Positions 14,180-14,291 are shown, counted from the stretch's first letter. The stretch: DNA of 37,981 nucleotides from Candidatus Woesearchaeota archaeon (GCA_016180085.1 JACPBX010000035.1:1-37981), one strand, 5' to 3'. Notes: generated from the letters alone by a model not told the origin. Program-made: numbers and translations.

Positions 14180-14291
14180 GCCGGGAAAGCACAAGCTGGT
14201 CGTGCGCTCGTTTGAAAAACGAGTGATCGTGCCCAACGATCATGCGGGTTCAAACTCCTGCCTAGGCAGGGTGAGAGTCCCGCTCCCGGCG
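14180..14291 (+). tRNA. tRNA with a serine-type body (long V-arm, G73) and GAA anticodon; 23-nt intron at 59/60 (14255-14277)
   Basis: Acceptor GCCGGGA/TCCCGGC; D stem GCAC/GTGC; anticodon stem CTCGT/ACGAG with loop TTGAAAA; 7-bp V-arm TGATCGT/ACGATCA; T stem GCGGG/CCCGC; strict BHB. A8 replaces U8; CCA is not encoded. Confidence 0.85.

What the first reader, a model, noticed from the sequence alone, without database searches (positions are those of the whole stretch)
14180..14291. Serine-identity tRNA carrying a Phe (GAA) anticodon: possible mistranslating tRNA held in check by the neighbouring antisense RNAs
Seen: perfect 5-bp stem with loop TT-GAA-AA, 7-bp V-arm, G73, and non-canonical A8. 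It is one substitution from Ser(GGA). Established: SerRS relies on the long V-arm rather than the anticodon, and Phe tRNAs have short V-loops. Inference: if charged it would put Ser at UUY codons, so it could be an RNA toxin with A1/A2 and the 6.6-kb RNA as antitoxins. hppA readthrough would also give antisense RNA, since its stop is 6 nt away. A pseudogene or consensus error is also possible, and no strong plus-strand TATA is evident.
Basis: partly seen in the sequence, partly recalled or inferred. Interest (0 to 1): 0.8.

Follow-up and report, generated by a model that had tools for sequence, protein, structure and literature searches.

The report
Serine-type tRNA reading phenylalanine codons
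A tiny groundwater archaeon carries an intact, intron-containing tRNA gene built and tagged like a serine tRNA but with the phenylalanine anticodon GAA; it belongs to a large, fast-changing family, most members of which sit next to a small predicted mirror-image RNA gene, which suggests a deliberately kept, normally silenced miscoding tRNA, although nobody has shown it is made or charged.

Summary
Window 14180-14291 (+) is a class-II tRNA gene with anticodon GAA, G73, A8 and a 7-bp variable arm. ARAGORN and Rfam mis-call its 3' end because a 23-nt intron with a strict bulge-helix-bulge sits in the T loop.

It is neither a sequencing error nor a mutated Ser(GGA) gene:
- The genome has separate canonical Phe(GAA) and Ser(GGA) genes.
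- A syntenic orthologue in a sister species also reads GAA.
- I found 16 further GAA members in the same GTDB family and five in other families of the order (named relative: Ca. Woesearchaeota).

In the pooled set all 109 family members have G73 and 106 have C3:G70, as canonical Ser tRNAs do. All 26 canonical Leu tRNAs have A73, G3:C70 and a UUAGY variable loop.

In the 91 members of the window's own family, anticodons are almost all NAN: Leu, Phe and Ile, plus Arg CCU. These are abundant codons where serine would be most damaging. The genome itself uses the standard code.

Two divergent small antisense-RNA genes upstream match this tRNA's D and variable arms. The 6.6-kb element is a collapsed dead cassette.

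Charging, expression and toxicity are untested. Earlier agents of this scan reported sibling tRNAs (CAG, CCU) elsewhere in this genome.

The parts
14180..14291 (+). tRNA gene, class II (long variable arm), anticodon GAA, discriminator G73. The mature RNA is 89 nt before CCA addition.
   Evidence: Covariance model R1 scores 126 bits. Covariation is shown.
14214..14216 (+). Anticodon GAA in the 7-nt loop UUGAAAA (U33, A37).
   Evidence: Identical in the syntenic orthologue G008:C5:12279-12388.
14224..14243 (+). Variable arm: stem GAUCGU/ACGAUC plus U-A, loop GCCCA.
   Evidence: Five of its six stem pairs show double (compensatory) changes across homologues.
14255..14277 (+). 23-nt intron between tRNA positions 59 and 60, in a strict hBHBh' motif. 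The outer helix is the T stem (14244-48 / 14279-83). The central 4-bp helix is UUCA (14249-52) with UGAG (14272-75). The bulges are AAC (14253-55) and AGU (14276-78). The inner hairpin spans 14256-14271.
   Evidence: Read by hand; the minimum-free-energy fold agrees. Excision gives the T loop UUCAAAU, as in intronless Ser tRNAs. 56 of 67 family T-loop introns keep a perfect central helix, which covaries UUCA/UGAR against UUCG/CGRA. An EndA gene is present.
14140..14158 (+). Conserved BRE/TATA-like box (CCGAAAGACATAAGAAAAA), the putative weak or regulated promoter of the tRNA.
   Evidence: Conserved at the same distance in all 10 aligned cassettes. It differs from the TTTATAAA boxes of canonical tRNA genes. 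Its function is inferred.
14013..14139 (.). About 125-nt A/T-rich spacer between the divergent promoters, with semi-conserved short inverted repeats (for example CCGAA-AA-TTCGG).
   Evidence: about 93% identical between G000 and G008. Its role is unknown.
13921..14012 (-). Predicted small RNA gene A1. The TATA/BRE box is TTAATAAACTT (14002-12, read on the minus strand). The body is about 13942-13990. It ends in a T-run, which appears as the A-run 13921-41 on the plus strand. The RNA is the reverse complement of a D-arm-like plus V-arm-like piece of this tRNA.
   Evidence: The predicted duplex with its own tRNA is -46.8 kcal/mol against a median of -29.0 for 58 other family tRNAs, rank 1. Expression has not been shown.
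13714..13802 (-). Predicted small RNA gene A2, with the same architecture: box at 13792-13802, body about 13730-13780, A-run at 13714-29. Its V-like piece shares the core GTGCCCAAC with the tRNA's V arm.
   Evidence: (motif at -388).
14297..16297 (-). hppA (H+-translocating pyrophosphatase), convergent with the tRNA. Its stop codon lies 5 nt from the tRNA's 3' end.
   Evidence: The same arrangement is found in G008, G007 and G001.
6619..6815 (+). Collapsed sister cassette. From 5' to 3' it has an A-run, a sRNA-type D-like piece, a V arm and T-arm 5' half that are 30/31 identical to the target, an insert of about 120-130 nt, then the 3' acceptor strand, G73 and the same trailer CATCA. It has no 5' acceptor strand and no anticodon arm.
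   Evidence: 97% over nt 46-76; R1 only 21 bits.

Best explanation
This is a functional, spliced tRNA gene. Its body carries the serine identity set of this lineage: G73, G1:C72, C3:G70, G30:C40 and a long variable arm. Its anticodon reads the Phe codons UUY.

The cell's single standard SerRS does not inspect the anticodon, so the mature tRNA would most likely be serylated. It would then insert Ser at about 4.6% of all codons, in competition with the canonical tRNA-Phe.

The gene is one copy of a mobile, rapidly diversifying cassette family found across Woesearchaeales. In a cassette, such a miscoding tRNA is paired with one or more divergently transcribed small RNAs of about 45-50 nt. These are complementary to that tRNA's own D and variable arms.

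I read the pair as an all-RNA toxin-antitoxin or abortive-infection-like module:
- The tRNA is stable and is normally kept harmless by a weak, possibly regulated promoter and by pairing with its cognate small RNA. That pairing would unfold the D arm and mask the variable arm that SerRS needs.
- Loss of the presumably labile small RNA would release proteome-wide Phe-to-Ser errors.

Shown here: gene integrity, family membership, identity features, cognate complementarity, and the anticodon bias.

Inferred: serylation, expression, toxicity, and neutralisation by pairing.
For: 1. The gene is under selection.
- The cloverleaf and the BHB intron are kept by compensatory changes.
- EndA is present.

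2. It is not an error.
- The syntenic G008 orthologue has identical nt 1-47, including GAA.
- There are 17 GAA members in 10 genomes of 5 genera, and GAA members in 5 more GTDB families.

3. Its identity features are serine-type.
- Pooled set: family n=109, G73 in 109 and C3:G70 in 106. Canonical Ser n=20: G73 in 20, C3:G70 in 19. Canonical Leu n=26: A73, G3:C70 and V-loop UUAGY in all 26.
- G30:C40 is present in the target and in 90% of the 91 own-family members.
- The review PMC9976931 gives G73 and G30-C40 as determinants for archaeal SerRS and G73 as an antideterminant for H. volcanii LeuRS. It gives A73, G20, C13-G22 and GAA as the archaeal Phe set; the target has only C13-G22 and GAA.
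- The mature target is 72% and 70% identical to the Ser tRNAs, 57% to canonical Phe and 58% to the window's Leu(TAG) gene, which carries an 18-nt duplication.
- One SerRS with the variable-arm-binding N-terminal domain is present. PheRS and the canonical tRNA-Phe with G20/A73 are also present.

4. The code is standard.
- In hppA, UUY sits at Phe columns in 9 of 10 cases, CUN at Leu, AGG at Arg and AUA at Ile. None sits at a Ser column.

5. The anticodon spectrum points to harm.
- 84 of 91 own-family members read NUN codons. With CCU, they hit the commonest Leu, Ile, Arg and Phe codons.
- In yeast, tRNA-Ser variants with GAA and GAU were among the eleven anticodons most strongly depleted in selection, UAA and CCU variants were highly toxic, and A37 was worse than G37 (PMC6125640). 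A37 is found in 87% of the family.

6. There is a cognate partner.
- An own-V-arm match at a fixed distance upstream is found in 62 of 91 members but in essentially none of the bona fide Ser genes.
- The sRNA's own tRNA is its best predicted target in 48 of 59 cassettes: -52.6 against -34.3 kcal/mol.
- Between G000 and G008 the changes cluster in the V arm and in the V-like piece of the sRNA gene, and they are coordinated.

7. Turnover is fast, as for selfish or defence modules.
- Family members are 74-84% identical within the genus, where tRNA-Leu(UAG) is 97-100% identical.
- The same hppA site holds GAA, GAA, CCU, CAG, a 3' relic, or nothing in different species.
- The remnant at 6.6 kb has lost the tRNA's 5' half and the sRNA promoter together.
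Against: - There are no expression, splicing, charging or proteome data.
- The tRNA's promoter box departs from the consensus of canonical tRNA genes.
- A8 replaces the near-universal U8 here and in 24 of 91 members. Disrupting U8-A14 suppressed toxicity in yeast, so this copy may be attenuated. The G008 orthologue also has a C3.U70 mismatch.
- 29 of 91 family members, including all GAG ones, show no detectable partner. If they were fully toxic they would be unguarded.
- G000 alone has eight such genes, five of them CAG. That is hard to reconcile with strong toxicity unless silencing is tight.
- Similarity between the sRNA piece and the tRNA could be kept by gene conversion between direct repeats rather than by selection for pairing.
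- PheRS could charge the tRNA to some extent through the GAA anticodon.
Confidence: 0.45

Rival explanations
1. Selfish or decaying repeat. The cassettes spread and turn over as small mobile units. The tRNA copies are poorly expressed or structurally attenuated (A8, acceptor mismatches), so little or no mistranslation occurs. Neither the tRNA nor the small RNA has an organismal function.
For: - Patchy presence at the hppA site, with relics and collapsed cassettes.
- Non-consensus promoter.
- A8 in 26% of members and C3.U70 in the G008 orthologue.
- Many members lack a partner.
Against: - All four arms and the BHB intron are maintained by compensatory change.
- U33 and A37 are conserved, and the anticodons are restricted to a non-random set.
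- The V arm and the sRNA change in a coordinated way.
- The family persists across many families of the order.
Confidence: 0.2
2. Benign extra tRNA-Phe. PheRS recognises G34-A35-A36 and charges it with Phe, outcompeting SerRS. Other members would likewise be charged by anticodon-reading IleRS and ArgRS. The family would then simply add decoding capacity for abundant codons.
For: - GAA and C13-G22 are Phe determinants.
- The family's anticodons match abundant codons.
Against: - It lacks A73 and G20.
- About half of the family has Leu anticodons yet lacks all three features invariant in canonical Leu tRNAs.
- The most abundant codons overall (GGC, AAG, GCA, GAG) are almost never targeted.
- A harmless tRNA would not need a cognate antisense RNA.
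- SerRS ignores anticodons (PMC6125640, PMC9976931).
Confidence: 0.1
3. Regulated adaptive mistranslation. Low-level Ser insertion at hydrophobic codons is used deliberately, for example under stress or in contact with a host, to diversify or destabilise the proteome. The small RNA would be the tuning knob.
For: The facts are the same as for the main explanation. The precedents are Candida CUG ambiguity and Ascoidea dual decoding (PMC2246281, PMC6041473).
Against: - Genes show no codon adaptation: UUY stays at conserved Phe sites.
- The anticodon at one locus changes between species, which argues against a specific tuned substitution.
- Copy number and presence are patchy.
Confidence: 0.1
4. 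Non-translational RNA. The tRNA-shaped RNA is not charged. It acts instead as a decoy or bait for tRNA-targeting nucleases or viral factors, or as a partner that titrates the small RNA.
For: - Fast diversification.
- Cassette mobility.
- A8.
Against: - A canonical 7-nt anticodon loop with U33 and A37.
- Intact G18G19 and a UUCAAAU elbow after splicing.
- An invariant G73 and acceptor stem of Ser type.
- An NAN-biased anticodon set.
All of these are the features expected of a charged, ribosome-active tRNA.
Confidence: 0.1
5. Assembly or consensus error, or a freshly mutated pseudogene of tRNA-Ser(GGA).
For: GAA is one substitution from GGA.
Against: - A separate Ser(GGA) gene exists at G000:C11:6513-6616.
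- The orthologue also has GAA.
- There are 21 further GAA members.
- The nearest relatives are non-Ser paralogues.
Confidence: 0.03

Closest known systems
Nematode nev-tRNAs (Hamashima et al. 2012, PMC3333845; 2015, PMC4300185)
   Same: Both are lineage-specific, multi-copy, fast-evolving class-II tRNAs whose anticodons (including Ile UAU and Arg CCU) do not match the identity of the body. The nematode ones were shown to be charged according to the body and to decode in vitro.
   Different: All 115 nev-tRNAs have A73, derive from tRNA-Leu and are leucylated. Here the body is Ser-type with G73, the host is an archaeon, the genes carry T-loop BHB introns, and most sit beside a cognate antisense RNA gene.
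tRNA-Ser(CAG) of Candida / CTG-clade yeasts and Ascoidea (PMC2246281, PMC6041473)
   Same: A natural Ser-identity tRNA with an anticodon for a hydrophobic amino acid.
   Different: In those yeasts the codon is reassigned, or coded both ways, and genes have adapted to it. Here the code is standard, the canonical tRNA coexists, and many different anticodons occur.
Engineered tRNA-Ser anticodon variants in yeast (Zimmerman et al. 2018, PMC6125640; Berg et al. 2019, PMC6827378)
   Same: The same molecule by design: tS-F(GAA) puts Ser at Phe codons and is lethal when it accumulates. It is rescued by the competing tRNA-Phe and suppressed by V-arm or U8-A14 mutations.
   Different: Those are laboratory constructs, controlled by tRNA decay and not by an antisense RNA.
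Bacterial allo-tRNAs (Mukai et al. 2017; from my own knowledge and an earlier scan note, paper not read here)
   Same: Ser-chargeable tRNAs with non-Ser anticodons, found in metagenomes.
   Different: allo-tRNAs are defined by 8/4 or 9/3 acceptor/T-stem geometry. This tRNA has the standard 7/5.
CreTA RNA toxin-antitoxin of haloarchaea and bacteria (PMC8501985)
   Same: Toxin and antitoxin are both RNAs. The toxin acts on translation through tRNA and codon usage. The module acts as an addiction or defence device.
   Different: CreT is a mini-mRNA that sequesters a rare tRNA, and CreA needs Cascade to repress transcription. Here the candidate toxin is itself a tRNA and the candidate antitoxin would pair with it directly. 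No CRISPR link was seen.
Non-canonical BHB tRNA introns of Archaea (PMC5829648)
   Same: A strict hBHBh' motif outside the anticodon loop, at position 59/60. DPANN lineages are rich in disrupted tRNA genes.
   Different: Nothing unusual in the intron itself. It only explains why the gene finders fail.

Membership tests
tRNA (generic cloverleaf, Rfam RF00005) | 7-bp acceptor stem, D, anticodon and T arms, 7-nt anticodon loop with U33 and purine 37, G18G19 and a T-loop UUCRANY | tested here: met
   after removing the 23-nt intron. The raw gene scores only 25.1 bits against the 29-bit cut-off, because of the intron. Exception: A8 instead of U8.
Archaeal tRNA-Ser identity set | Long variable arm; G73; G30:C40; G1:C72 (PMC9976931); in this clade also C3:G70 | tested here: met
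   All are present in the target. Clade comparison; review passages.
Archaeal tRNA-Ser identity set | Actual serylation by the organism's SerRS | not testable with these tools
   The SerRS gene is present.
Archaeal tRNA-Ser identity set | Serine anticodon (NGA or GCU) | tested here: not met
   The anticodon is GAA. The anticodon is not an identity element for SerRS, so this fails the isoacceptor definition, not chargeability.
Archaeal tRNA-Phe identity set | A73, G20, C13-G22, G34-A35-A36, short variable loop | tested here: not met
   Only GAA and C13-G22 are present. The target has G73, U20 and a 20-nt variable region. The canonical tRNA-Phe at C26:916-989 has the full set.
Archaeal tRNA-Leu identity set | A73 and a specific variable-loop sequence (A47c G47d); in this clade G3:C70 and loop UUAGY | tested here: not met
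   Target: G73, C3:G70, loop GCCCA. All 26 canonical Leu tRNAs have all three features.
Archaeal BHB intron | Two 3-nt bulges separated by a 4-bp helix and flanked by helices; excision restores a normal tRNA | tested here: met
   Coordinates are given under parts..
nev-tRNA | Nematode class-II tRNA with A73 and Leu determinants and a non-Leu/Ser anticodon | tested here: not met
   G73, Ser-type body, archaeal host. It works like one but is not a member.
allo-tRNA | 8/4 or 9/3 acceptor/T-stem architecture | tested here: not met
   The architecture is 7/5.
Toxin-antitoxin module (RNA antitoxin, types I/III/VIII) | A growth-inhibiting product and an adjacent, specific, more labile neutraliser | tested here: inconclusive
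   Adjacency and sequence specificity are met. Toxicity, neutralisation and relative stability are not testable here.

The most novel reading that the evidence does not exclude
Woesearchaeales carry a so far undescribed all-RNA toxin-antitoxin or abortive-infection system. The toxin is a serine-charged tRNA that misreads abundant hydrophobic codons, here UUY. The antitoxin is a dedicated small RNA that pairs with that tRNA's D and variable arms. V-arm and anti-V-arm pairs diversify like immunity specificities.
Probability: 0.4. Interest if true: 0.92.

Novelty: new variant of a known kind. Interest (0 to 1): 0.8.

Why it matters
Natural tRNAs whose body and anticodon disagree are rare: nematode nev-tRNAs, bacterial allo-tRNAs and CTG-clade yeasts. 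I found no report from Archaea. This case has three further points of interest.

- The family is large and order-wide, and it is biased towards the anticodons that experiments in yeast found most harmful for a serine tRNA.
- It comes with a candidate built-in antidote, which would make a tRNA itself a regulated poison.
- It gives a directly testable case of how cells tolerate, silence or exploit mistranslation.

It also has a practical side. Standard tRNA finders both miss and mislabel these genes: this one is called 'tRNA-Phe'. That would corrupt tRNA inventories and genetic-code inference for DPANN genomes.

Tried and rejected
- **C/D-box guide RNA for the upstream units.** Rejected: there are no C or D boxes in the predicted minus-strand RNA (read).
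- **Split or permuted tRNA halves.** Rejected: the upstream piece has D-like and V-like hairpins only, with no acceptor or anticodon parts.
- **The variable arm as a second intron of an ordinary tRNA-Phe.** Rejected: G73, no G20, Ser-type acceptor stem, and the arm is kept by compensatory change in all paralogues.
- **Codon reassignment.** Rejected on hppA codon-by-column counts. This is a small sample from one gene.
- **A second SerRS or SerRS-like paralogue.** None found: one Seryl_tRNA_N hit and four class-2b cores of ordinary sizes.
- **The 6.6-kb element as an integration (att) duplicate.** Rejected, because the region between is syntenic in G008. Its left half is of sRNA type, which fits a deletion fusing the sRNA gene to the tRNA's 3' part.
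- **A full tRNA inventory of a complete relative (G039), to ask whether canonical tRNAs are missing.** This led nowhere: only 14 Rfam hits, because introns hide most genes.
- **A transition-asymmetry test of antisense pairing.** Considered and dropped, because hairpin conservation in both partners makes it uninformative.
- **NCBIfam typing of SerRS.** Failed on a coordinate slip and was not repeated.

Full report
**The object.** Window 14180-14291 (+) reads, in tRNA order, as follows:
- acceptor strand GCCGGGA, then A8 and A9
- D arm GCAC-AAGCUGGUC-GUGC, then G26
- anticodon arm CUCGU-UUGAAAA-ACGAG
- a 20-nt variable region, U-GAUCGU-GCCCA-ACGAUC-AU
- T arm GCGGG-UUCAAA[23 nt]U-CCCGC
- acceptor strand UCCCGGC and G73

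ARAGORN calls a tRNA-Phe(gaa) but ends it at 14269. Rfam's tRNA model reaches only 25.1 bits with the same false end. The cause is an insert in the T loop.

That insert forms a strict helix-bulge-helix-bulge-helix:
- The T stem is the outer helix.
- UUCA (14249-52) pairs with UGAG (14272-75) as the 4-bp central helix.
- AAC and AGU are the two 3-nt bulges.
- 14256-14271 is the inner hairpin.

Cutting after the second base of each bulge removes 14255-14277. This leaves the T loop UUCAAAU, the loop of the intronless Ser tRNAs of this genome. The unconstrained fold gives the same cloverleaf at -58.6 kcal/mol, z = -6.15. A splicing endonuclease gene is present.

**The organism.** The genome is 998 kb in 45 contigs, 83% complete and 48.7% G+C, with intron-rich tRNAs. 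The closest named relative by hppA (81% identity) is Candidatus Woesearchaeota archaeon RIFCSPHIGHO2_02_FULL_45_15.

**Not an error, and not the Ser(GGA) gene.**
- G000 has a canonical tRNA-Phe(GAA) with G20 and A73 at C26:916-989. At 64 bits it is the best tRNA hit in the genome.
- It also has a separate Ser(GGA) at C11:6513-6616 and a Ser(CGA) at C11:12371-12500.
- In a sister species (G008) the whole region is syntenic. A tRNA sits at the same place, just past the hppA stop. Its nt 1-47 are identical to the target, GAA included.
- The mature target is 81% identical to a CCU paralogue (C41), 72% and 70% to the two Ser tRNAs, 58% to Leu(UAG) and 57% to canonical Phe.

**A family.** Ten full-length homologues from the genus share the acceptor stem, G73, the long variable arm and the T-loop intron. 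Their anticodons are GAA, AAG, CAG or CCU.

On that alignment 94.7% of cells pair and 11 pairs show double changes. No shuffle out of 500 reaches this, and slid controls fall to 35-50%.

A covariance model built from the alignment finds about 145 matches in all 25 genomes of the GTDB family. I fetched about 100 of them. The 91 with non-Ser anticodons have these properties:
- G73 in 100%, G1:C72 in 98%, G30:C40 in 90%
- U33 in 97%, A37 in 87%

Their anticodons are CAG 26, GAA 17, AAG 15, UAU 9, GAU 7, CCU 5, CAA 4 and GAG 4, with single GUC, CUC, UAA and AAC. G000 itself holds eight: GAA, CCU, five CAG and one GAG.

In a sample of 121 genomes of the order, the best hits of 28 genomes outside the family include 18 more non-Ser members. 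GAA occurs in five further families.

Of 67 T-loop introns, 56 keep a perfect central helix. The helix covaries UUCA/UGAR against UUCG/CGRA.

**Which identity?** Three features separate canonical Leu from canonical Ser tRNAs in this clade.

| Set | n | N73 | Pair 3:70 | V loop UUAGY |
|---|---|---|---|---|
| Canonical Leu | 26 | A, all 26 | G:C, all 26 | all 26 |
| Canonical Ser | 20 | G, all 20 | C:G, 19 of 20 | 1 of 20 |
| Family (pooled) | 109 | G, all 109 | C:G, 106 of 109 | 10 of 109 (motif anywhere in the gene) |

- The identity review (PMC9976931) gives G73 and then G30-C40 as strong elements for bacterial-type and archaeal SerRS.
- It gives G73 as an antideterminant against H. volcanii LeuRS.
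- It gives A73, G20, C13-G22 and G34-A35-A36 as the archaeal Phe set. The target has only the last two.
- The genome has one SerRS with the N-terminal arm domain, and it has PheRS.

So the body says serine. This is an inference from sequence, not a charging result.

**The code is standard.** I aligned hppA with 80 homologues. At columns at least 80% conserved, UUY sits at Phe in 9 of 10, CUN at Leu in 15 of 17, AGG at Arg in 6 of 6 and AUA at Ile in 10 of 10. At looser thresholds none of these codons falls on a Ser column.

**The anticodon bias.**
- 84 of 91 family anticodons have A35, that is, they read NUN codons.
- In 434 long ORFs, UUY makes up 45.7 per mille of codons. CUG, CUU, AGG and AUA are the leading codons of Leu, Arg and Ile.
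- The overall commonest codons (GGC, AAG, GCA, GAG) are almost never targeted.
- In yeast, a library of tRNA-Ser with all 64 anticodons showed GAA and GAU among the eleven most depleted. UAA and CCU were highly toxic, A37 was worse than G37, and toxicity followed dissimilarity to Ser more than codon frequency. Phe-to-Ser was seen in 2-10% of peptides, and toxicity was suppressed by V-arm mutations or loss of U8-A14 (PMC6125640).

Drift under selection against harm would enrich mild anticodons. The opposite is seen. An alternative reading is inertia: every NAN anticodon is one or two steps from Ser NGA or from Leu anticodons.

**The cassette.** All aligned members lie in a unit of about 375 nt. 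From 5' to 3' on the plus strand it contains:
- an A-run
- a D-arm-like plus V-arm-like piece
- about 15 variable nt
- the conserved box AACUnnUUAAUAAACUUU
- a spacer of about 125 nt
- the box GAAAGRCAUAWGAAA at -42 to -28
- the tRNA

Read on the minus strand, the first box is a good BRE/TATA and the A-run is an oligo-T terminator. This predicts an RNA of about 45-50 nt antisense to the tRNA's D and V arms. The target has two such units, A1 (13921-14012) and A2 (13714-13802).

- An own-V-arm match at a fixed distance upstream (mostly -218 to -235) is found in 62 of 91 members, and in 13 of 17 GAA members.
- Bona fide Ser genes show only background matches, with one doubtful exception.
- Predicted duplex energy with the sRNA's own tRNA averages -52.6 kcal/mol, against -34.3 for other family tRNAs.
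- The own tRNA is the best target for 48 of 59 sRNAs. For the target the values are -46.8 against a median of -29.0, rank 1.
- The G000 and G008 cassettes are 90% identical. Their differences cluster in the V arm, the V-like piece, the variable sRNA 5' end and the intron, and the two V sequences change together.

Expression of either RNA is unproven. Gene conversion between the direct repeats could mimic co-evolution.

**Turnover.**
- tRNA-Leu(UAG) is 97-100% identical across the genus. Family members are 74-84% identical.
- The site 3' of hppA holds GAA in G000 and G008, CCU in G007 and CAG in G001. G009 has only the last ~25 nt of such a gene. G002-G006 have nothing there, though the G004 and G005 contigs end about 125-200 nt past hppA and cannot be fully checked.
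- Window 6619-6815 is a collapsed sister cassette. It has an A-run and a sRNA-type D-like piece fused at the V arm (30/31 identical to the target's) to a T arm, a long insert, the 3' acceptor strand and the same trailer. It has no anticodon arm. This fits a deletion between the V-like piece and the V arm, which removes the tRNA's 5' half and the sRNA promoter together.

**Reading.** The best-supported account is a serine-charged, UUY-reading tRNA kept as the harmful half of a two-RNA module (confidence 0.45).

The main rivals are:
- an attenuated selfish repeat without function (0.2)
- cognate or dual charging by PheRS (0.1)
- regulated adaptive mistranslation (0.1)
- a non-translational decoy (0.1)
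- an artefact (0.03)

I found no description of such archaeal tRNAs, or of a tRNA/anti-tRNA toxin-antitoxin pair, in the paper library. The nearest known systems are nev-tRNAs, CTG-clade tRNA-Ser(CAG), engineered tRNA-Ser variants, allo-tRNAs and CreTA.

Earlier agents of this scan reported sibling CAG and CCU tRNAs and the antisense units elsewhere in this genome. I re-derived what I use here.

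Noticed in passing
window 33529-33630 (+): tRNA-Leu(UAG) with A73. In G000 it carries an 18-nt tandem duplication inside the T arm (TTCGGCGGTTCGAATCCG twice) that eight genus relatives lack; their genes are otherwise 97-100% identical. It could be an assembly artefact, a disabling duplication, or a very young intron-like insert.
   Followed up: partly
window 13806-13906 (-): A third small unit between A1 and A2, with its own TATA-like box (about 13890-13906) and a T-run. 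Its body (GGGCCCAGAATCTGGTATCCGAACCC on the plus strand) resembles the 5' part of a class-I tRNA with a GGGCCC acceptor stem, not the GAA tRNA.
   Followed up: no
window 14013-14139 and the same spacer in all cassettes: The spacer between the two divergent promoters keeps short A/T-rich inverted repeats of the type CCGRAAA..TTTYCGG. It is about 93% identical between G000 and G008. It looks like an operator for an unknown DNA-binding regulator.
   Followed up: no
window 9594-11140 and about 12410-13630: Two stretches with no counterpart in the otherwise syntenic G008 contig. The second holds a 271-aa ORF (12746-13561) with no Pfam family.
   Followed up: partly
L196 (G009:C124), just 3' of hppA: Only the last ~25 nt of a family tRNA (intron end, T-stem 3' strand, acceptor 3' strand, G73) remain, abutting a different neighbouring gene. 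It is a relic showing that this site was once occupied and the gene later lost.
   Followed up: partly
G000:C3:6346-6465 and C3:26764-26875: ARAGORN's anticodon calls for intron-containing tRNAs are unreliable here. The gene it calls 'Leu(caa)' has G3:U70 and anticodon CGC, so it is tRNA-Ala. 'Phe(aaa)' is also a mis-parse. Several introns share the hairpin repeat TGACCCTTTT..AAAAGGGTCAATCCAAAAACG.
   Followed up: partly
G039 (complete 1.3-Mb genome of the same order): Only 14 tRNA genes are found by the Rfam model in a complete genome. Most tRNA genes of this order are evidently hidden by introns, so published tRNA inventories for these archaea are likely to be very incomplete.
   Followed up: no
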